From a virus, in the IMG/VR virus record IMGVR_UViG_3300045988_069178: DNA of 55,078 nucleotides. One strand, given 5' to 3'. The notes under the pieces are model-generated. The model searched no databases. It was given only the letters and a program-made list of their open reading frames with translations, and had not been told where the DNA came from. Positions 3,163 to 48,415 of the stretch are shown here, in pieces. The position numbers were made by a program, and so were the translations under genes. Each line of letters begins with the position of its first letter. Position 1 is the stretch's first letter.

Positions 3163-3370
3163 TTCTCATAAACCTCTCAAAATCTCTCCTACACTTAGGA
3201 CATAATTCAAAACTATTTCTTTCTCTTTGCGTTTTTCTCTTATAAATAGCTCCACAGATACCAAGGCTGTATGATTGCTTTTCTACTTCAATATCCACAA
3301 TAGCACTATAGTTGTACTCGATTTCCACACCGCACCTGTCGCAAGTGTGCCATTCTTTTTGATGTTTCAT
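3155..3370 (-). CDS. Zinc-ribbon protein
   Basis: 71 aa with two CxxC pairs (CDRC ... CPKC). C-terminus RFMRNE. Confidence 0.6.
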   Translation of the reverse strand: MKHQKEWHTCDRCGVEIEYNYSAIVDIEVEKQSYSLGICGAIYKRKTQRERNSFELCPKCRRDFERFMRNE

Positions 3371-4934: not shown

Positions 4935-5051
4935 AAATTACCTCCTGTGAAAGATAATAGCACTCCGCTTGTGCTTAATCTGTGAATAACAAAACAACAA
5001 ACAGGCAGTTCACAGGTCTGCTTTTCGGTAGCTAACCTAGTTTGTTGTAAT

Positions 5052-5250
5052 TGATGTGGTGTGGATTTGAACCACACATGAGATTTCGTCAGTTAGTCTG
5101 CACCTACGAATAGGGATAGATGGATTTTTATTTTCTAACGGATTTATAGGTGTGATTGCTTACAGCTATTTACCAGACTTGTTCTAGCAATCCTTGTTGC
5201 ACACCTTTCTCTTAACCACCGGTTAGCGTTTACCCATTCCGCCACACATC
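5052..5250 (-). ncRNA. tRNA-like element: canonical T-arm plus acceptor 3' strand, with the complementary 5' strand ~190 nt upstream
   Basis: Minus strand reads UGUGG-UUCAAAU-CCACA-CCACAUC-A at 5052-5076. The complementary GAUGUGU lies at 5244-5250, followed by a D-arm-like GCG-GAAUGGGUAAA-CGC. No anticodon arm can be drawn. The interior folds into long stems (AGGUGU/ACACCU, GAUUGCU/AGCAAUC). Confidence 0.35.
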
Positions 5251-5325
5251 AACTCACATATAGATGGTTTTAGAGAAATACAGATAACCAGCAACTTGTT
5301 TCTCTTTTCAGTTTACATGTGAGAA

Positions 5326-5408
5326 CGCCGACAGTAGGAATCGAACCTACACAACATTTCTGCTGGATAGCTTAGCAAGCTACTGGAATACCATTATCCC
5401 ATATCGGC
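5326..5408 (-). tRNA. tRNA-Ser (anticodon GCU)
   Basis: Hand-folded cloverleaf. Acceptor GCCGAUA/UGUCGGC, D stem GGAU/AUUC, anticodon stem GUAGC/GCUAU with loop UUGCUAA, long variable arm CAGCA-GAAA-UGUUG, T arm GUAGG-UUCGAUU-CCUAC. No encoded CCA. Confidence 0.85.
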
Positions 5409-5565
5409 AAGCGGTGGTTTTTTACTTGGTTATCACCACCCAAGGATTTTTTAGTCAGCCGCAAGCGGCTCAATCCAGTTCCCTGTGCTAAGTTTAACCG
5501 GTATATTGATTAGCACCTGCATTTCTCTAATAAACGCACTAGGGGTGTACTGGCAACATCGCCAA
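5409..5565 (-). ncRNA. Structured non-tRNA spacer RNA within the tRNA array
   Basis: 157 nt between two tRNAs with no T-loop. Contains a 7-bp stem GUGCUAA/UUAGCAC, the hairpin AGCCG-CUUG-CGGCU enclosed by GGAUU/AAUCC, and an H-type pseudoknot candidate CUUGG-GUGGU-GAUAA-CCAAG-UAAAAA-ACCAC. Confidence 0.35.
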
Positions 5566-5655
5566 TGGGGAAGAGAGGAATTGAACCTCCAATGTTTACC
5601 GCAAGGGAACAGATTTACAGTCTGCTGCAACACCGCCAATCGTTGCCGCTTCTCC
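5566..5655 (-). tRNA. tRNA-Tyr (anticodon GUA)
   Basis: Acceptor GGAGAAG/CUUCCCC with one A:C mismatch at 3:70. D stem GCAAC/GUUGC, anticodon stem GCAGA/UCUGU with loop CUGUAAA, a long variable arm as in bacterial Tyr, and T arm GGAGG-UUCAAUU-CCUCU. Confidence 0.75.
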
Positions 5656-5659
5656 AAAA

Positions 5660-5743
5660 CGCCGTGTCAGGGAATCGAACCCCGGAGGCTTTTACGCCCA
5701 GACAGTTTTCAAGACTGCTTCCTCGACCAACCGGACACACGGC
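5660..5743 (-). tRNA. tRNA-Ser (anticodon UGA)
   Basis: Acceptor GCCGUGU/ACACGGC, D stem UCC/GGA, anticodon stem GCAGU/ACUGU with loop CUUGAAA, a long variable arm, and T arm CGGGG-UUCGAUU-CCCUG. Confidence 0.82.
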
Positions 5744-5958
5744 ATATGCCGCCTGTAACGGCTATCAAGAATTTTGTAATAAATAGTCGGGGGTATTAAG
5801 AAAAATCCTTGATAAGTTGAATTTCACACCTCTGTGCGAGGTAAAACCTCTCGGATAGTCTTGCACTACCCTTAACTGAACAAATCCAAAGAGGTAAATA
5901 TTGAAAGGAGGTCCATCTTGGTTGCAAAGATAGACTGTCAATAAAAAGTAAGCTGAAC
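5744..5958 (-). ncRNA. Structured non-tRNA spacer RNA within the tRNA array
   Basis: 215 nt with no T-loop. Contains an 11-bp stem UCAAGGAUUUU/AAAAUUCUUGA, the hairpin GAGGU-UUU-ACCUC nested in GUGC/GCAC, and the hairpin GCCG-UUACAGG-CGGC. Confidence 0.3.
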
Positions 5959-6029
5959 TGCCCTTGTTGGACTCGAACCAACGAATGCAGGAATCAAAAT
6001 CCTGTGCCTTACCGCTTGGTGAAAGGGCA
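5959..6029 (-). tRNA. tRNA-Gln (anticodon UUG)
   Basis: 71 nt: UGCCCUU-UC-ACC-AAGCGGUAA-GGC-A-CAGGA-UUUUGAU-UCCUG-CAUUC-GUUGG-UUCGAGU-CCAAC-AAGGGCA. From memory, this is close to bacterial tRNA-Gln architecture. Confidence 0.9.
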
Positions 6030-6125
6030 AAAATGTGATTTATTCTCTGACATATATTCATCACTGCCGCAGTGTACTATTCTTTGTAGCAATTTATACG
6101 CATTGGTCAGACACGGCATTAAATA

Positions 6126-8725: not shown

Positions 8726-8932
8726 TTATTTTTTCTCTACATATTTAATAATATTTCCCGGCTGCATATCTAAAAGTTCACACAGCTTTTCCAAAGTTTT
8801 AATGCCAATCATTTCATTTTTTCGCAACCTCTGCATTGCTGATTGACTTATTAGCCCCTCTTTTAATATCCTTGTGCTGTTGTATCCACTCTCTTTTAAA
8901 GATTCCAGCACGTTAATTTTATATACAAGCAT
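8726..8932 (-). CDS. XRE/Cro-like HTH regulator
   Basis: 68 aa with a GAGGAGG RBS. HTH segment ISQSAMQRLRKNEMIGIKTLEKLCELL. Divergent from the plus-strand operon. Confidence 0.75.
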   Translation of the reverse strand: MLVYKINVLESLKESGYNSTRILKEGLISQSAMQRLRKNEMIGIKTLEKLCELLDMQPGNIIKYVEKK

Positions 8933-9026: not shown

Positions 9027-9055
9027 TTGACTTTAAACCGTTTTGGGTTTATTAT
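9027..9055 (+). promoter_or_regulatory. Sigma-A-type promoter for the plus-strand operon
   Basis: TTGACT-17 nt-TATTAT, about 40 nt upstream of ATG 9095. Confidence 0.55.
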
Positions 9056-9094: not shown

Positions 9095-9364
9095 ATGAAA
9101 GCAAACGATACAATCAAAGTACATTTATACGATTTAAACAATAGGGAGATACGAACTAGAAACCATGACAAGACTTTTTGTGTGTACGAGAAAAACGGAA
9201 AACTTGGAATTGACTGGAATACAGAAAAAAGCCCGTACACATGCAAGGGTGATGTATTTACGCCACTCGAAACCTTTGCACAATCTGCAATATTTGAAAA
9301 TATTGAGACTAAGGAACTTTTTCACTTCTCAAATATCAAAAATGCAGTTGTTAGAATAGCATAG
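9095..9364 (+). CDS. Hypothetical protein (plus-strand operon, ORF A)
   Basis: 89 aa with an AGAGAGG RBS. No domain recognised. Confidence 0.65.
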   Translation: MKANDTIKVHLYDLNNREIRTRNHDKTFCVYEKNGKLGIDWNTEKSPYTCKGDVFTPLETFAQSAIFENIETKELFHFSNIKNAVVRIA

Positions 9365-9522
9365 CCGAAACGCTCCGCCTGGAGCGTCAGCCGCGGGACG
9401 GTCTCCCGGCTCTGATGATGGCAGACCAAAAAAGGCGGTCACTCCTACCAAGAACGAACCGCCACCAATCAAAAAAGAAAGGTAAGCCGATTATATCACA
9501 ATCGGCGAAATGGTACAAGATT

Positions 9523-9681
9523 ATGACAGTTTACAGAATTAAAATCGCAGGCACAGAATACAACGAAGATTACACATTCACAGAGCCAGCAGAGGGCAAC
9601 GTAAAAGAAGAAGTTAGCGCCATTCTGGAAGAGATGAAAAAAGGCAATATTGACAGCTTAGAAGTTAAAAGGGAGGCATAA
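9523..9681 (+). CDS. Hypothetical acidic protein (ORF B)
   Basis: 52 aa from ATG 9523. There is no SD close to the start. Its 3' end carries the GGGAGG RBS of ORF C. The track's 9415 start runs through GC-rich hairpins. Confidence 0.4.
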   Translation: MTVYRIKIAGTEYNEDYTFTEPAEGNVKEEVSAILEEMKKGNIDSLEVKREA

Positions 9682-9685
9682 AACT

Positions 9686-9940
9686 ATGATAAACGAAACA
9701 GCAGAACAGAAAGAAATAAGAATGTTTAATTTTTATAAAAAGGATTTAGAAAAACTAGGAAAAGAGCACGGACAAATAAGAATGATTTGTATTGAGTATG
9801 TTTGCAGTTTTCCAAAAATTAACCCTTTTAAAATGGCTAAGACCTTAAAAGATGACGGATATAATATACTTTTTGATGACTCTAGCATAAGCAGAGCAGA
9901 GAACGAAAAGAAAAGACGAAAAGTCGAAAAAATCGCATAA
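9686..9940 (+). CDS. Hypothetical protein (ORF C)
   Basis: 84 aa with a strong GGGAGG RBS and a basic C-terminus. Confidence 0.65.
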   Translation: MINETAEQKEIRMFNFYKKDLEKLGKEHGQIRMICIEYVCSFPKINPFKMAKTLKDDGYNILFDDSSISRAENEKKRRKVEKIA

Positions 9941-9942
9941 TT

Positions 9943-9983
9943 AGCAAGATTGGCACCTCCGGGGTTCGACTCCCCGGCTTGCT
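9943..9983 (+). ncRNA. tRNA-like acceptor/T-arm minihelix A
   Basis: AGCAAG-AUUGGCACCU-CCGGGG-UUCGACU-CCCCGG-CUUGCU. A 6-bp outer stem abuts a 6-bp stem with a consensus 7-nt T-loop. It starts 3 nt after the ORF C stop. Confidence 0.5.
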
Positions 9984-10023
9984 TTACCCGTAAGGGAATA
10001 AATAAAAGAAAGGCAAAAACATT

Positions 10024-10197
10024 ATGAACAGATTAGAAGAAGCAAAAAAGGCATTTTTAGAAGTTAGAAGCATTTTGGCAGAAAAACATGAAGACTTTGC
10101 GCTTGCAAAAGCATATAAAAAGCCTTGGAAGTGGTACAGGGAGCACACCACGCAAGAAGCTATTAAGATTTTAAGAGCAGAAGCAAAAGCAAACTAA
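10024..10197 (+). CDS. Hypothetical protein (ORF D, 57 aa, below cutoff)
   Basis: My translation gives MNRLEEAKKAFLEVRSILAEKHEDFALAKAYKKPWKWYREHTTQEAIKILRAEAKAN. The GAAAGG RBS lies 10 nt upstream. Confidence 0.5.
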   Translation: MNRLEEAKKAFLEVRSILAEKHEDFALAKAYKKPWKWYREHTTQEAIKILRAEAKAN

Positions 10198-10243
10198 CCG
10201 CCGCAGAGAATGCCAGCCGGACCGATACCGGCGGCGGTTTTTC
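10197..10243 (+). terminator. Minihelix B: nested hairpin with U-tract (intrinsic terminator with the same architecture as A and C)
   Basis: ACCGCCG-CAGAGAAUGCCAG-CCGG-ACCGAUA-CCGG-CGGCGGU-UUUU. An outer 7-bp stem abuts an inner stem with a 7-nt loop. Confidence 0.6.
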
Positions 10244-10282
10244 CTTTTAAGGGATAATATTAATAATATGGAGGTCTATGAT

Positions 10283-10552
10283 ATGGCAATATATGAAAAA
10301 CTGAACACTTTAACAGCTGGAGAAATCCGCGGAAATTTAGAAAAATTTATATTTATCTATGGGAAAAAGGCGGCTAAAATCTTGGAGCTTGAAAAAATAG
10401 CAGATTTTTCTTTTTGGGATAATGGGCGGAGCGTAATTATATACACAGGTTCGCAGGCTGTTTTTGATTGTAACTATGATATTTTTTATGGCTTAAAAAG
10501 GCTTACAACTTGTTATAATAAAGGCGGTCTATTTTATGAATTTAATAATTAA
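10283..10552 (+). CDS. Hypothetical protein (ORF E)
   Basis: 89 aa from ATG 10283, with a GGAGGT RBS 8 nt upstream. Confidence 0.6.
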   Translation: MAIYEKLNTLTAGEIRGNLEKFIFIYGKKAAKILELEKIADFSFWDNGRSVIIYTGSQAVFDCNYDIFYGLKRLTTCYNKGGLFYEFNN

Positions 10553-10564
10553 TAACTTGATTGA

Positions 10565-10588
10565 GGGCGTACAATCTGCGCCCTTTTT
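10565..10588 (+). terminator. Intrinsic terminator
   Basis: GGGCG-UACAAUCUG-CGCCC followed by UUUUU. Confidence 0.7.
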
Positions 10589-10589
10589 G

Positions 10590-10628
10590 GCTTGCTCTGG
10601 TTTGGCTGGTTCGATTCCAGCCGCAAGC
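10590..10628 (+). ncRNA. tRNA-like acceptor/T-arm minihelix C
   Basis: GCUUGC-UCUGGUUU-GGCUGG-UUCGAUU-CCAGCC-GCAAGC, lying between two terminators. Confidence 0.5.
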
Positions 10629-10632
10629 ATTA

Positions 10633-10660
10633 AGCATATATTTTTATATGCTTTTCTTTG
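10633..10660 (+). terminator. Intrinsic terminator
   Basis: AGCAUAUA-UUUU-UAUAUGCU followed by UUUCUUU. Confidence 0.7.
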
Positions 10661-11259
10661 TGTACCTTGAAAAATTAATACAACAATGCTATGCTTATAT
10701 ATAAGGCTTTTTACACCTTTTAGGTGTACAAGTGTACCCGGTCGGGGCGGTGTGTGCTTTGGTATATCTTCTAGGGCTGGCGACAGCTTCCACAACTTGC
10801 AAGGGCATATTATACCCATTTTGTACAACGCTGTTAAGGGCGTTTTAAGATGTGCAGGTATTAACCCTTACAATTATGCACTTGTAAAATAAAACCACCG
10901 TACAAGTTAAACTGCAAAGCCACAACACCAAAATAAACGCGAACCGCAACCGGTCAAGTCTATATATAGTGCTTTACCATACTAAAGTTTTTCATCAATT
11001 TTTCAGGGCAAATCTGAACAAAATCGGGAACAAAAATTGAAATTCTGTGTAACCGATTTTTGGATTTCAAAATTGCATATGACGGGGGTATCAAAATTTT
11101 TGCATTATATTTTTGTAGGAAAATTTTTTCAATTTTTTAAGTAGGATTTGAACAAAATCTGAACCAAATTTTGAGATTTTTTAAAATTGAAATTATGAAT
11201 ATAAAAAGTCAACCCACGGGGGTAAAGAAAAACTTTACCTATATTCCGTGGGTTTTAAA

Positions 11260-17299: not shown

Positions 17300-18661
17300 C
17301 TAAAAATTCTTTAATTGTATTTCGATATTTCCATTGACTATAATAATCTTATCTATTATAGTTTTAAGTATCATATTTTTTTGTTTCTTGTCGATGTTAT
17401 CCCAAATGTCGGCAAGTTTTTTTATGTTCTCATAAACAAACTCTTTTTTCTGCGTATTGATTGCATTTTTGCTTTCTGTAGCAATATTTGATTTCATTTC
17501 TTTAATCTGCGTTTCAAGTTCCTTAATCATTTCTAAGACAGTATTGTTTCCATCAGCGTACAGATTGTATAATCTTTTTAGCTTAATCTGTTCTTTTTCA
17601 AGCTGTGATTGCATAATTTCAAGTTTTGTCGCCTTTTCCTTTGGTTTGTAAGATGATAAGTCAAGTGATATTTTAAGGATTTCTTCTTCTATCTGCTTTT
17701 CTATTTCATCAGCCCATTCAAGCGAATTATCACAATTTGCATTGTAATTAGGCAAATATGAAAGTTTTTTATCTCTTGAGCAGCAATAAATCTTATGTTT
17801 TTCACTTCCCCATTTCTGATAACGCATTTTGCAACCGCAAACGCCGCAATAACATAATCCAGTAAGTAGATTAGGTTCGGTTATGCAGGAAACTTTTGCT
17901 GAACGCCTTGACCTTCTTAGTTCTAATGCGAGCTCAAATCTATCTTTATCAAAAACAGCTTCGTGCCTGCCTCGATACACCTTGCCTTTATAGGGTATCA
18001 TTCCGACGTTGACAACACTGGTCAAGATGCTCCTTGTTACAATTTCGGACTTAAAACCACAAATTTCCTTAATTTTGGCGTCTGAATATCCGGATATAAA
18101 TAATTCAAGTGCTTTCCTTGCTTGCTCCGCACGTTCTGGAATAGGTATTAATATGCCTTGCTCTTTACTATATGAGTAACAATAAGGCAAATTACCGCCG
18201 CCAAACCAATAACCTTGCTTAACTCGCTCAAGCATACCGCCACGCATACGCAACATCATAGTATTTTTGTCAAGCTGTGCAAATACAGCCATCATCTGCG
18301 TGTAAGCCTGCTCCATAGGGCTGTTGTAACTGACAGAATCGTGAACACATTTAAACATGACATTATACTTTTGAAACACTTTCTCGATAAGATATATCCC
18401 ATCAATCATATTTCTTGATAGCCTATCAAGCTTAAAAGCTACAACACAGCTTACTCTTTTACGGCTACAATCGTTCACAAGTCTTTGAAGCTCCGGTCTA
18501 TCCATATTAGTGCCGGTGTAACCATCATCAATATACCAATCTGATATAATTAACTCATTTTTTCTGCAATAATTTTCAATATCTCTTTTCTGGCTATCAA
18601 GTCCATTGCCCTCAACAGCCTGCTTTTCAGTAGATACTCTCATATAAGCAACACATTCCAT
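17300..18661 (-). CDS. Large serine recombinase (integrase/invertase)
   Basis: 453 aa. Has an N-terminal resolvase catalytic domain (YMRVSTEKQ ... DRLSRN), a recombinase domain, a zinc ribbon (CYCGVCGCKM...YCC) and a C-terminal coiled coil. Confidence 0.9.
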   Translation of the reverse strand: MECVAYMRVSTEKQAVEGNGLDSQKRDIENYCRKNELIISDWYIDDGYTGTNMDRPELQRLVNDCSRKRVSCVVAFKLDRLSRNMIDGIYLIEKVFQKYNVMFKCVHDSVSYNSPMEQAYTQMMAVFAQLDKNTMMLRMRGGMLERVKQGYWFGGGNLPYCYSYSKEQGILIPIPERAEQARKALELFISGYSDAKIKEICGFKSEIVTRSILTSVVNVGMIPYKGKVYRGRHEAVFDKDRFELALELRRSRRSAKVSCITEPNLLTGLCYCGVCGCKMRYQKWGSEKHKIYCCSRDKKLSYLPNYNANCDNSLEWADEIEKQIEEEILKISLDLSSYKPKEKATKLEIMQSQLEKEQIKLKRLYNLYADGNNTVLEMIKELETQIKEMKSNIATESKNAINTQKKEFVYENIKKLADIWDNIDKKQKNMILKTIIDKIIIVNGNIEIQLKNF

Positions 18662-47932: not shown

Positions 47933-48415
47933 TCATTCCCCCACCTTTGTTACTGTGAAGGTGCCACCAGCACCTTCGACAACTTGAAGCTTGTCTGTGC
48001 ATTCGATAGGTGAAGTGTTAGGAACTGCTGTTACTGTCATTTCAAGTACTGAATCAGTACCAGAAACATCATTAGGTGTTGCTGTTACCTGTCCGACAAA
48101 TGCGTACTTAGCAACCGCACCTAATCCGTCAGAGCCGTATAACTGAATAATATCTAACTGCTTACCCTCTGCTTTGATTAAGTCCTGTAAATAAGCCTTT
48201 TCAAGGTTGCCTGTGTAAGTCTTAGCATCAGATGTTTTGATACCCATTAAGAATGTCTGTGAATCATCTTCAAATGTTGTACTTTCAACTGTATTAGGTG
48301 CTGATACTGGTGCTGAAATTGACTTAGCTGCAACCATTAACTTATATGAGCCTGCAAAACCATCTTCGCTATGCTCCTTGTAGATAACTCTAGCTTTATA
48401 ACTTGTACTTGCCAT
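47933..48415 (-). CDS. Major tail protein
   Basis: 160 aa with a GGAGG RBS. Position and beta-rich composition fit. Confidence 0.65.
   Translation of the reverse strand: MASTSYKARVIYKEHSEDGFAGSYKLMVAAKSISAPVSAPNTVESTTFEDDSQTFLMGIKTSDAKTYTGNLEKAYLQDLIKAEGKQLDIIQLYGSDGLGAVAKYAFVGQVTATPNDVSGTDSVLEMTVTAVPNTSPIECTDKLQVVEGAGGTFTVTKVGE

What the first reader, a model, noticed from the sequence alone, without database searches (positions are those of the whole stretch)
9943..10628. Plus-strand small-ORF operon punctuated by tRNA-like acceptor/T-arm minihelices
Three intergenic elements share one architecture: 5' outer-stem strand, then an 8-13-nt linker, then an inner hairpin with a 7-nt loop, then the 3' outer-stem strand directly abutting it.
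- A (9943-9983): AGCAAG-AUUGGCACCU-CCGGGG-UUCGACU-CCCCGG-CUUGCU.
- C (10590-10628): GCUUGC-UCUGGUUU-GGCUGG-UUCGAUU-CCAGCC-GCAAGC.
- B (10197-10243): ACCGCCG-...-CCGG-ACCGAUA-CCGG-CGGCGGU-UUUU.

A and C carry a consensus T-loop (UUCGAnU) on a 6-bp T-stem stacked on an acceptor-like stem. This is the top half of a tRNA without D or anticodon arms. Such minihelices are the minimal substrates of RNase P, RNase Z, the CCA-adding enzyme and some tRNA-targeting toxins. They are too complete to be attP-type tRNA 3' fragments, because the 5' acceptor strand is present. Element C sits between two intrinsic terminators. Possible roles are mRNA punctuation or processing signals, 3'-end stabilisers, or decoys for tRNA-acceptor-targeting defence enzymes.
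Basis: partly seen in the sequence, partly recalled or inferred. Interest (0 to 1): 0.75.

Follow-up and report, generated by a model that had tools for sequence, protein, structure and literature searches.

The report
tRNA-like minihelices punctuating a phage operon
A family of human-gut phages carries conserved 40-nt RNA elements that mimic the top half of a tRNA between small genes, in slots that self-cleaving hammerhead ribozymes also occupy, so the phage probably borrows the host's tRNA-processing enzymes to cut its messenger RNA into pieces.

Summary
They are real, conserved, strand-specific RNA structures: a 6-bp acceptor-like stem stacked on a 6-bp T-stem with a canonical T-loop (UUCRAYU, G53:C61), joined by an 8-13-nt linker that usually contains GG. 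A sequence-independent descriptor finds 120 copies on the operon strand of related phage loci, 0 on the other strand and about 1 in shuffles. Many stem sequence classes keep pairing, and G.U outnumbers A.C by 145 to 18. No Rfam 15 family matches.

Element B shares the topology and the slot but has no T-loop. It looks like a bulged intrinsic terminator.

New context: a type II hammerhead (9363-9430) lies in the same operon. In relatives, hammerheads and minihelices both sit directly after stop codons, and in L103 a hammerhead replaces minihelix A. The elements lack CCA, have U at position 74 like the phage's own tRNAs, and are flanked by small hairpins.

Best reading, inferred and not shown: they are host RNase P / RNase Z cleavage signals that punctuate a mosaic small-gene operon. 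Decoy, stabiliser and recombination-joint roles are not excluded. This is a new variant of a known kind. Interest is about 0.68.

The parts
9027..9055 (+). Promoter-like site (TTGACT-17-TATTAT) upstream of the plus-strand operon, divergent from the Cro/CI-type HTH gene at 8726-8932(-).
   Evidence: Consensus scan (10 of 12 matches) and the Pfam HTH_26 hit. This is a weak, pattern-only match.
9095..9364 (+). First small ORF (89 aa). Its stop codon overlaps the first bases of the hammerhead.
   Evidence: In relatives this ORF family is followed by a hammerhead in 3 of 3 copies.
9363..9430 (+). Type II hammerhead self-cleaving ribozyme with an intact core (CUGAUGA, GAAAC, GUC).
   Evidence: Rfam RF02276, 63.9 bits against a gathering score of 37. 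It is present in the same operon in most relatives.
9415..9681 (+). Small ORF. The longest reading starts inside the hammerhead, so the real start is probably the internal ATG near 9523 (52 aa).
   Evidence: The start position is inferred, not tested.
9686..9940 (+). ORF84, a conserved small protein of unknown function. Minihelix A begins 2 nt after its stop codon.
   Evidence: In its family 45 copies are followed by a minihelix, 1 by a hammerhead and 14 by neither. No Pfam, PHROG or INPHARED match.
9943..9984 (+). Minihelix A: AGCAAG / linker AUUGGCACCU / CCGGGG-UUCGACU-CCCCGG / CUUGCU, plus discriminator-like U9984. U9985 is at position 74 and no CCA is encoded.
   Evidence: Model R1 scores it 60.8 bits. 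It is conserved with covariation in more than 119 IMG/VR contigs. RNAalifold recovers the same 12 pairs.
9987..9996 (+). Small hairpin CCC-GUAA-GGG, 2 nt after the predicted RNase Z site. Proposed to be the 5'-terminal protective hairpin of the downstream mRNA.
   Evidence: Hairpins of varying sequence occur at the same offset in relatives: CCCGG-AUAA-CCGGG, CCGG-AAUGA-CCGG, GUCCU-GUAA-AGGGA. A hairpin of at least 4 bp lies within 6 nt in 64% of A-type contexts against 14% of controls. The role is inferred.
10024..10197 (+). ORF57, an optional cassette that is absent in many relatives.
10197..10243 (+). Element B: a bulged GC-rich hairpin starting at the stop codon of ORF57 and followed by UUUUU. 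It shares topology and slot with A but has no T-loop (ACCGAUA). Most likely an intrinsic terminator or attenuator, possibly a degenerate relative.
   Evidence: No R1 hit at E <= 10. Conserved without informative variation. The sequence after B is the ORF94 leader that directly follows A in loci lacking ORF57.
10283..10552 (+). ORF94/89. Homologues start at the ATG at 10283 (89 aa). In many relatives this cassette lies directly between A and C. Function unknown.
   Evidence: AlphaFold gives pLDDT 91 but there is no PDB fold match.
10563..10585 (+). Hairpin T1 followed by UUUUU. It is an intrinsic-terminator-like hairpin that would become the 3' end of the operon mRNA after cleavage at the 5' side of C.
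   Evidence: Non-A minihelices have a hairpin within 8 nt upstream in 79% of contexts against 17% of controls.
10590..10629 (+). Minihelix C: GCUUGC / linker UCUGGUUU / GGCUGG-UUCGAUU-CCAGCC / GCAAGC, plus discriminator-like A10629. U10630 is at position 74.
   Evidence: R1 scores it 38.9 bits. Relatives hold covarying variants: GCCGTTC/GGGCGGC, GCGTTT/GGATGC, TCGCGT/GCGCGG, and the series GGCTGG/CCAGCC to GGTTGG/CCAGCC to GGTTGG/CCAACC.
10632..10653 (+). Hairpin T2 (AAGCAUAUA-UUUU-UAUAUGCUU) followed by UUUUCUUU. Terminator-like and begins 3 nt after C.
   Evidence: Fold. Conserved in relatives.

Best explanation
A and C are RNA elements in the operon transcript that mimic the acceptor/T-arm half and the elbow of a tRNA. 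Host tRNA-maturation enzymes most likely recognise them. RNase P would cut at the 5' edge of the acceptor-like stem. RNase Z would then cut after the unpaired discriminator-like base, and the CCA-adding enzyme could extend the released RNA of about 42 nt. The result is punctuation of a polycistronic mRNA of small, mosaic accessory genes into separate pieces. The new ends are protected by the flanking hairpins: T1-type hairpins upstream and CCCG..CGGG-type or T2 hairpins downstream. The minihelix is thus a host-enzyme-dependent counterpart of the self-cleaving hammerhead modules in the same operons.

Shown here: the structure, its conservation and covariation, its strand specificity, its slot, its exchange with hammerheads, and its tRNA-like processing features. 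Inferred: that any of these enzymes cleave it, the order of cleavage, and the effect on expression.
For: 1. tRNA-like anatomy is under selection.
- 98.4% of cells pair against 68% in shuffles, and 10 of 12 pairs show double changes.
- Over 150 unique copies there are 58 stem combinations, with 1619 Watson-Crick, 145 G.U and 18 A.C pairs. This means an RNA of the sense strand, not a DNA palindrome.
- The loop is UUCGAUU, UUCAAUU or UUCGACU in 144 of 150 copies.
- The two loop-closing pairs are G-C in 144 and 148 of 150 copies, as for tRNA G53:C61.
- The stack is 12-13 bp in 93 of 111 unique cores.
- The linker contains GG in 123 of 150 copies, usually at linker positions 4-5. In some lineages GG sits in the loop of a small D-arm-like hairpin, such as GUAAG-ACAGG-CUUAC or AAUU-AAAGG-AAUU.

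2. Orientation is fixed. All 118 model hits and all 120 descriptor hits lie on the gene strand.

3. The elements share a slot with ribozymes.
- Minihelices start 1-6 nt after stop codons and hammerheads overlap stop codons.
- Minihelices follow at least 10 ORF families and hammerheads at least 20.
- In L103 a hammerhead (40.2 bits, above the gathering score) starts at the stop codon of the ORF84 homologue, exactly where A sits elsewhere.

4. Processing-relevant positions match the host pathway.
- No CCA is encoded and position 74 is U in 129 of 150 copies.
- The phage's own three tRNAs have the same features.
- The hosts are Lachnospiraceae and Eubacterium.
- In Bacillus subtilis, RNase Z cuts CCA-less precursors 3' of the discriminator and is blocked by CCA. 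RNase P cuts CCA-less precursors in vivo and precedes RNase Z on long 5' leaders. trnSL-Ala1 has U74 A75 (PMC1874595).

5. Protective hairpins flank the predicted cuts: 79% upstream and 77% downstream for non-A elements, against 17% and 14% in controls. L096:3960-4100 reads stop codon, hairpin+UUUUU, minihelix, CUA, hairpin, RBS, ORF.

6. There is precedent. RNase P cleaves tRNA-like modules in mRNAs, in MALAT1/MEN-beta, in plant t-elements and in phage regulatory RNAs (PMC4919922). It also cleaves M. smegmatis YrlA, which then receives CCA (PMC4201824).
Against: - No expression or cleavage data exist for these phages. Every enzymatic step is inferred.
- For A, an RNase P cut would leave the upstream ORF84 message ending 2 nt after its stop codon with no 3' hairpin. 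That fits destabilisation better than simple separation.
- C lies behind a terminator-like hairpin (T1), so it may be transcribed only by read-through. In the GGGCGGC lineage the minihelix itself is followed by UUUCUG, so it could act as a terminator.
- The base at -1 is not conserved: T 64, A 46, G 33, C 7.
- In one lineage (L086-L089) the stems are kept but the T-loop has drifted to AUCGWGY. The T-loop is therefore not indispensable everywhere.
- No full tRNA was found in the same slot in any relative.
- Outside this phage family only one unverified candidate was found (L329).
Confidence: 0.55

Rival explanations
1. The product is what matters, not the cut. The excised, CCA-tailed minihelix of about 42 nt acts in trans as a tRNA mimic. 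It could be a decoy or sponge for a host enzyme or anti-phage effector that recognises the acceptor/T-arm or elbow, such as a tRNA nucleotidyltransferase or pyrophosphokinase toxin, an acetyltransferase toxin, an acceptor-stem nuclease, or SmpB/EF-Tu-like binders.
For: - The anatomy is a full top-half mimic, including an elbow-like GG.
- The operon is a mosaic array of small unknown ORFs next to the immunity region, as is typical of accessory or counter-defence loci.
- The phage also carries several tRNAs.
- This reading is compatible with excision by RNase P and RNase Z.
Against: - The acceptor-stem sequence varies freely, with 42 combinations. Nothing points to mimicry of one particular tRNA.
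- Exchange with a hammerhead at the same slot is expected for a cleavage module, not for a decoy gene.
- No partner defence gene or target was identified.
- There are only one or two copies per genome.
Confidence: 0.15
2. The elements are purely structural and are not cleaved. They would act as stable hairpins serving as 3'-exonuclease blocks, transcription terminators or attenuators, or insulators between cistrons. The T-loop would be kept only because it makes a compact, stable cap.
For: - B has the same topology and slot and is followed by UUUUU.
- The GGGCGGC-type C variants are followed by a U-rich run.
- The L086-L089 lineage keeps the stems after losing the T-loop consensus.
- The simple terminator scan flags the T-arm of A.
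Against: - A plain stabiliser has no need for UUCRAYU with G53:C61 in 144 or more of 150 copies, a 12-13-bp stack, a bulged GG linker, an unpaired discriminator-like base or U74.
- A is not followed by a U-tract.
- Separate hairpins already flank the elements.
Confidence: 0.12
3. The function is at the DNA level. The conserved GGTTCGATTCC cores would be recombination joints, either module boundaries for cassette shuffling or att-type sites. The RNA fold would be incidental or inherited from a tRNA ancestor.
For: - L058 is an exact A-5'-half / C-3'-half chimera joined within the shared T-loop, with the intervening genes deleted.
- Gene content on either side of A varies between relatives.
- Part of A (linker plus T-arm) resembles unannotated tRNA-type fragments near the ends of Streptomyces phage genomes.
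- The linker 3' end and the 5' two-thirds of A's T-arm (stem 5' strand, loop and first three bases of the 3' strand) match the phage's own tRNA-Ser(UGA) at 20 of 22 positions.
Against: - G.U outnumbers A.C by 145 to 18. Compensatory changes in both stems are expected for RNA, not for a recombination site.
- The 5' acceptor strand has no role in an att site.
- The integrase is a serine recombinase located 7 kb away.
- Recombination at the cores is better seen as a side effect of sequence identity.
Confidence: 0.08
4. The elements are decaying remnants of phage tRNA genes, internally deleted pseudogenes with no present function.
For: A's T-arm resembles that of the phage tRNA-Ser. A sub-threshold, degenerate tRNA also exists at 5566-5637(-).
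Against: - The elements are conserved at fixed slots in more than 119 contigs.
- Pairing is maintained through many sequence classes, and the T-loop is near-invariant.
- Pseudogenes would accumulate stem-breaking changes.
Confidence: 0.03

Closest known systems
tRNA acceptor/T-arm minihelix, the minimal in vitro substrate of RNase P, RNase Z and the CCA-adding enzyme (from my own knowledge of the McClain/Altman and Nashimoto/Weiner-type model substrates)
   Same: A 12-bp coaxial acceptor plus T stack, a 7-nt T-loop with U54, U55, C56, R57 and A58, the G53:C61 pair, and an unpaired base after the 3' strand.
   Different: Those substrates are laboratory constructs. The elements here are natural, sit inside an mRNA, and carry an 8-13-nt 5'-side bulge with GG in place of the D arm, anticodon arm and variable region.
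mascRNA / menRNA tRNA-like modules of MALAT1 and MEN-beta (Rfam RF01684; PMC4919922)
   Same: A tRNA-like module embedded in a long transcript and excised by RNase P and RNase Z. This defines the end of the upstream RNA and releases a small tRNA-like RNA that receives CCA.
   Different: Those modules are eukaryotic, form a full cloverleaf-like fold of about 60 nt, and lie in a non-coding host transcript. The Rfam model gives only 15.6 bits on the T-arm of A, against a gathering score of 42.5.
Plant mitochondrial t-elements and mitochondrial tRNA punctuation (PMC4919922)
   Same: tRNA-like structures between or after coding regions serve as RNase P/Z processing signals for mRNAs.
   Different: Those are organellar and are processed by a protein-only RNase P. 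They are usually acceptor plus T-arm with other remnants, and are not associated with ribozymes.
tRNA-like domain of tmRNA, and the tRNA-like module of bacterial and phage Y RNAs (YrlA; PMC4201824)
   Same: Bacterial and phage RNAs that mimic the acceptor stem, T-arm and a D-loop analogue without a decoding anticodon. M. smegmatis YrlA is cut by RNase P and receives CCA.
   Different: Those are domains of larger stand-alone non-coding RNAs with dedicated protein partners (SmpB, Rsr). No Rfam tmRNA or YrlA model matches here, and no rsr or smpB gene lies nearby.
Type II hammerhead ribozymes in phage operons (Rfam RF02276)
   Same: Same operons, same orientation, same position directly after stop codons, and direct replacement of A in L103.
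   Different: Hammerheads cleave themselves and leave 2',3'-cyclic phosphate and 5'-OH ends. The minihelix has no catalytic core and would need host enzymes, giving 3'-OH and 5'-phosphate ends.
attP/attB tRNA 3'-end fragments of temperate phages
   Same: Both contain a T-arm and a 3' acceptor strand. A gives short BLAST matches to such unannotated fragments in Streptomyces phages.
   Different: att fragments have no complementary 5' acceptor strand and show no compensatory evolution. This phage uses a serine recombinase.

Membership tests
tRNA (Rfam RF00005 / ARAGORN) | Cloverleaf with D arm and anticodon arm | tested here: not met
   ARAGORN and Rfam call only the genes at 5325-6030(-). Nothing is called at A or C even at E <= 10. 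The linker is 8-13 nt.
tRNA (Rfam RF00005 / ARAGORN) | Canonical T-arm (G53:C61, U54 U55 C56 R57 A58) stacked on an acceptor stem, 12 bp in all | tested here: met
Substrate of RNase P / RNase Z / CCA-adding enzyme | Cleavage at -1/+1 and after position 73, followed by CCA addition | not testable with these tools
   Only the sequence prerequisites could be checked: a 12-13-bp stack, the T-loop, no encoded CCA, and U74 in 129 of 150 copies.
mascRNA-menRNA (RF01684) | Match to the family covariance model at the gathering score | tested here: not met
   15.6 bits against 42.5, and only model positions 33-49, which are the T-arm.
tmRNA / mt-tmRNA tRNA-like domain | Match to the tmRNA clan models, or an ARAGORN tmRNA call with a tag reading frame | tested here: not met
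   8.2 bits on the T-arm of C only. ARAGORN finds no tmRNA.
Intrinsic terminator | GC-rich hairpin immediately followed by a U-tract | tested here: not met
   This row concerns A and C. A is followed by UUACCC and C by AUUAAG. The scan hit on A's T-arm counts Ts inside the acceptor strand. B, T1 and T2 do meet this feature.
attP-type tRNA 3' fragment | A 3' part of a tRNA gene without a paired 5' strand, located at the integration site of a tyrosine integrase | tested here: not met
   The 5' strand is present and covaries. The only recombinase found among the ORFs scanned is a serine recombinase, at 17300-18661.
Minihelix family defined here (model R1) | Element B belongs to it | tested here: not met
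   No hit at E <= 10 with filters off. The loop is ACCGAUR in all relatives. B shares only the topology and the slot.
Hammerhead_II (the neighbouring element at 9363-9430) | Covariance-model score above gathering, with a conserved catalytic core | tested here: met
   63.9 bits against 37, with CUGAUGA, GAAAC and GUC present.

The most novel reading that the evidence does not exclude
A widespread family of gut Lachnospiraceae phages builds its accessory-gene operon from gene cassettes separated by interchangeable RNA-cleavage cassettes. A cassette is either a self-cleaving hammerhead or a minimal tRNA mimic that recruits host RNase P and RNase Z, each with its own end-protecting hairpins. The conserved T-loop cores would also serve as recombination joints that shuffle or delete cassettes, as in L058. 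The excised CCA-tailed minihelix may itself be a functional small RNA. This would give a concrete and testable role, mRNA punctuation, to phage hammerheads, and would be the first natural bacterial or phage use of a bare acceptor/T-arm minihelix.
Probability: 0.4. Interest if true: 0.8.

Novelty: new variant of a known kind. Interest (0 to 1): 0.68.

Why it matters
The purpose of hammerhead and other small ribozymes in phage genomes is an old open question. Here a ribozyme and a tRNA-processing signal occupy the same slot after homologous genes. That points to transcript cutting as the shared function, and a few RACE, Northern and in vitro RNase P/Z experiments can test it.

If confirmed, tRNA punctuation, known from mitochondria and from MALAT1, would extend to DNA phages of abundant gut bacteria. 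It would also add a very small natural tRNA mimic (about 40 nt, with no D or anticodon arm) to the catalogue of structured RNAs. No Rfam 15 family matches it. Finally, it would offer compact, host-enzyme-dependent processing modules for operon engineering in Bacillota.

Tried and rejected
1. Element B as a third member was rejected. It has no T-loop, no model score and no informative variation.

2. attP or host-tRNA fragment was rejected, for the reasons given under membership.

3. A search for a full tRNA in the same slot in relatives found none on the operon strand in L001-L104.

4. Generality beyond this phage family was tested three ways.
- Three INPHARED phages that share only the hammerhead have no minihelix.
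- Of 26 IMG/VR loci with a structurally plausible hammerhead, the only hits were three from this same family and one unrelated candidate, L329. Its only exact pattern match elsewhere is an unrelated coding sequence, so it remains unverified.
- BLAST of A and C against INPHARED gave only partial T-arm matches to tRNAs or tRNA-type fragments.

5. Protein context gave nothing.
- The five ORFs have no Pfam or PHROG family.
- ORF84 has no tblastn hit in INPHARED.
- ORF94 homologues are all unnamed. Its confident model (pLDDT 91) has no PDB fold match.

6. Literature searches for a prior description found no such report. The terms combined tRNA-like, minihelix, hammerhead, phage, RAGATH, RNase Z and polycistronic. 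Absence from this library is not proof of novelty.

7. Pellegrini et al. 2003 (PMC202377), needed for the U74 preference of RNase Z, could not be read. That point rests on my memory, on the U74 A75 example in PMC1874595, and on the U found at the 5' end of the trailer in PMC8549757.
Full report
**What is in the sequence**

The window reads as a complete phage genome of about 55 kb. Its relatives in IMG/VR are 50-60 kb contigs from human gut samples. Two metagenome-assembled genomes, one Lachnospiraceae and one Eubacterium, carry related prophage DNA.

Almost all genes are on the minus strand. The exception is a short plus-strand operon at 9095-10552. It runs divergently from a Cro/CI-type HTH gene.

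Each folds, as both MFE and centroid, into a 6-bp outer stem, an unpaired 5'-side linker, and a 6-bp inner stem with a 7-nt loop whose 3' strand abuts the outer 3' strand. ARAGORN and Rfam call only the tRNA genes at 5325-6030(-). No Rfam 15 family matches A or C, even at E <= 10.

**Is it more than chance, and is it RNA?**

I fetched 104 related loci through two of the operon's proteins, and later 80 more through a 25-nt pattern from A.

A descriptor that ignores stem sequence (12 stacked pairs, loop TTCRANY, linker 2-25 nt) gave:
- 120 hits on the operon strand of 721 kb;
- no hits on the other strand;
- 0-2 hits in shuffles.

A covariance model built from 19 gaplessly aligned copies finds only A (60.8 bits) and C (38.9 bits) in the whole window with filters off. 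It finds 118 copies in 99 sources, all on the gene strand. On that alignment 98.4% of cells pair against 68% in column shuffles. Ten of 12 pairs show changes on both sides, and slid controls collapse.

Much of that signal is the A-versus-C difference. I therefore also tabulated 150 unique copies anchored on the loop:
- 58 stem combinations, including 42 acceptor-stem combinations;
- examples are AGCAAG/CTTGCT, GCTTGC/GCAAGC, CCGTTC/GGGCGG, TCGCGT/GCGCGG, GCTAAT/ATTAGC, AGTGAC/GTCACT and TCCGTT/GACGGA;
- a stepwise series GGCTGG/CCAGCC, GGTTGG/CCAGCC, GGTTGG/CCAACC.

G.U pairs outnumber A.C mismatches by 145 to 18. This is the signature of an RNA read from the plus strand, not of a DNA palindrome. 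RNAalifold on an independent MAFFT alignment recovers the same 12 pairs.

**How tRNA-like is it?**

- The loop is UUCGAUU, UUCAAUU or UUCGACU in 144 of 150 unique copies.
- The two loop-closing pairs are G-C in 144 and 148 of 150, as for G53:C61 and G52:C62 in tRNA.
- The maximal stack is 12 or 13 bp in 93 of 111 unique cores.
- The base after the 3' strand is unpaired. The next base, position 74, is U in 129 of 150 copies, and no copy encodes CCA.
- The phage's own three tRNA genes also lack CCA and have U74.
- The linker contains GG in 123 of 150 copies, typically at linker positions 4-5 in both A and C, although the rest of the linker differs.
- In some lineages the linker forms a small hairpin with GG in its loop: GUAAG-ACAGG-CUUAC in L090 and AAUU-AAAGG-AAUU in L041.

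I read the GG as a D-loop analogue that could dock on U55/C56 and form a tRNA elbow. That is inference from tRNA structure, not a test.

**Element B**

B (10197-10243) has the same topology and begins at the stop codon of ORF57. Its loop is ACCGAUR in all relatives, it carries no informative variation, it scores nothing with the model, and it is followed by UUUUU.

It does occupy the same slot as A. The sequence after B (CCUUUUAAGGGAUAAUAUUAAUAAUAUGGAGG...) is the ORF94 leader, and that leader directly follows A in loci that lack ORF57.

I class B as a bulged terminator-like hairpin, possibly a degenerate relative, and not as a member of the minihelix family.

A type II hammerhead ribozyme sits at 9363-9430 in the same operon (63.9 bits). 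Most relatives have one as well.

Across loci the hammerhead always overlaps or abuts the stop codon of the preceding ORF, and the minihelix starts 1-6 nt after a stop codon. After clustering the ORFs, minihelices follow at least 10 different ORF families and hammerheads at least 20. The operon is a mosaic of small cassettes.

The ORF84 family is followed by a minihelix in 45 loci and by a hammerhead in one, L103. There the ribozyme (40.2 bits, above the gathering score) starts at the stop codon, exactly where A sits elsewhere. A second hammerhead-like element lies just upstream of the same ORF. This positional exchange is the strongest hint about function.

**Flanking hairpins**

Two to four nucleotides after the discriminator-like base of A there is a small hairpin. 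Its sequence varies but its position does not: CCC-GUAA-GGG in the window, and CCCGG-AUAA-CCGGG, CCGG-AAUGA-CCGG and GUCCU-GUAA-AGGGA elsewhere.

For non-A elements a hairpin lies within 8 nt upstream in 79% of contexts and within 6 nt downstream in 77%. Random positions give 17% and 14%.

L096:3960-4100 shows the complete pattern inside an operon: stop codon, hairpin plus UUUUU, minihelix, CUA, hairpin, RBS, next ORF. In the window, C has T1 (10563-10585) before it and T2 (10632-10653) after it.

**Mechanism proposed**

The elements carry what bacterial RNase P, RNase Z and the CCA-adding enzyme recognise in a tRNA: the acceptor plus T stack and the T-loop or elbow. That statement about the enzymes rests on my own knowledge of minihelix model substrates.

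In Bacillus subtilis (PMC1874595):
- a third of tRNA genes lack CCA;
- RNase Z cuts them 3' of the discriminator and is blocked by CCA;
- RNase P cuts CCA-less precursors in vivo and acts first when the 5' leader is long;
- the example trnSL-Ala1 has U74 A75, the same as A.

RNase P is already known to cut tRNA-like modules in bacterial mRNAs, phage regulatory RNAs, MALAT1/MEN-beta and plant t-elements (PMC4919922). It also cuts M. smegmatis YrlA, which is then CCA-tailed (PMC4201824).

I therefore propose the following sequence:
1. RNase P cuts at 9942/9943 and 10589/10590.
2. RNase Z cuts at 9984/9985 and 10629/10630.
3. A minihelix of about 42 nt is released.
4. The flanking hairpins protect the new mRNA ends.

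The hammerhead does the same job autonomously.

Shown here: the structure, its selection, its strand, its slot, its exchange with ribozymes, and its processing-compatible positions. Not shown: any cleavage.

**Weak points**

- An RNase P cut at A would leave the ORF84 message with no 3' hairpin.
- C lies behind a terminator-like hairpin, so it may be transcribed only by read-through.
- One lineage (L086-L089) keeps the stems but has lost the T-loop consensus.
- The base at -1 is not conserved.

**Rivals**

- *Trans-acting decoy.* The excised mimic could act in trans as a decoy. The free variation of the acceptor stem and the exchange with a hammerhead argue against mimicry of a particular tRNA. 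The idea is compatible with excision and is untested.
- *Plain stabiliser or terminator.* This does not explain the near-invariant T-loop, the 12-13-bp stack, the GG bulge or U74.
- *DNA-level joint.* L058 is an exact chimera of the 5' half of A and the 3' half of C, joined in the shared GGTTCGATTCC, with the genes between them deleted. The cores therefore do recombine. However, the G.U bias and the compensatory changes show that selection acts on RNA, and the phage integrase is a serine recombinase far away.
- *tRNA pseudogene.* Covariation excludes this. A may nevertheless descend from a tRNA: the 3' end of its linker plus the 5' two-thirds of its T-arm (stem 5' strand, loop and first three bases of the 3' strand) match the phage's tRNA-Ser(UGA) at 20 of 22 positions.

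**Scope and novelty**

The motif is abundant within this phage family, in more than 119 contigs. I could not establish it elsewhere. Three unrelated hammerhead-bearing phages lack it. Among 26 other hammerhead loci, only one unrelated candidate appeared (L329), and it has no relatives with which to test it.

The operon's proteins gave no functional clue. Literature searches found no prior description, but the library is incomplete.

I rate this as a new variant of a known kind. tRNA-like processing signals are known. A bare acceptor/T-arm minihelix used naturally in phage mRNAs, interchangeable with hammerheads, appears to be new.

Noticed in passing
window 9363-9430 (+): A type II hammerhead ribozyme (63.9 bits) lies in the same operon and overlaps the stop codon of the 89-aa ORF. 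Relatives carry one or two copies at varying intergenic slots.
   Followed up: yes
L103 2917-2980 and 3260-3324 (+): The ORF84 homologue is bracketed by two hammerheads (30.3 and 40.2 bits). Self-cleavage at both would release an RNA of about 340 nt with 5'-OH and 2',3'-cyclic phosphate ends, the kind of ends that RtcB-type ligases join. A circular mRNA is conceivable.
   Followed up: partly
L058 3253-3330 (+): An exact chimera of the 5' half of minihelix A and the 3' half of minihelix C, joined in the shared T-loop, with the intervening genes deleted. This is evidence that the cores act as recombination microhomologies.
   Followed up: partly
window 5566-5637 (-), probably extending to about 5655: A sub-threshold tRNA lies directly after tRNA-Ser(UGA). 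RF00005 gives 27.3 bits against a gathering score of 29, and ARAGORN does not call it. By eye it is a long-variable-arm tRNA-like sequence with a GUA anticodon and an A3.C70 mismatch.
   Followed up: partly
window about 5053-5255 (-) and 4980-5047 (-): A T-arm-like hairpin (GUGUGG-UUCAAAU-CCACAC followed by CACAUC) abuts the int-alpA RNA motif (44.6 bits). A complementary GAUGUG lies about 200 nt upstream. This may be a tRNA-like element with a long insert, or a tRNA 3' fragment.
   Followed up: no
window 5325-6030 (-): All three called phage tRNAs (Ser-GCU, Ser-UGA, Gln-UUG) lack an encoded CCA and have U at position 74. They therefore depend on the RNase Z plus CCA-adding pathway, as proposed for the minihelices.
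   Followed up: partly
L086-L089 about 3258-3305 (+): A sub-lineage of minihelix A keeps both stems, with compensatory changes, but its loop has drifted to AUCGAGU or AUCGUGY. The linker there forms a D-arm-like hairpin.
   Followed up: partly
L042 about 3305-3350 (+): A C-type minihelix in which the 7-nt loop is inverted: AATTGAA instead of TTCAATT, between intact stems.
   Followed up: no
L329 (IMG/VR 3300025671_000372), minus strand of the locus: An unrelated phage contig carries a hammerhead (39.3 bits). About 600 nt downstream on the same strand it has a minihelix-like element, GAUGUA-uaugguauauaa-GAACAG-uucgauu-CUGUUC-UACAUC. No relatives were found, so it could be a chance match.
   Followed up: partly
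window 10980-11240: The non-coding stretch downstream of the operon holds several AT-rich direct and inverted repeats (AAAATTGAAA, AAATCTGAAC) and strong minus-strand promoter-like sites (11132-11104, 10837-10809). It may be an operator or origin region, or the source of an antisense transcript running into C.
   Followed up: no
window 10283-10552 (+): Homologues of ORF94 start at the internal ATG (89 aa). The protein folds confidently (pLDDT 91; three helices and a beta-sheet) but has no PDB fold match and no named homologue.
   Followed up: yes
window 9948-9978 versus Streptomyces phages (for example NC_028904 at 48210-48241): The linker plus T-arm of A matches unannotated tRNA-type fragments near the ends of Streptomyces phage genomes at 87-93% over about 30 nt. 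Those are probably attP cores, and the match hints at a tRNA origin for A.
   Followed up: no
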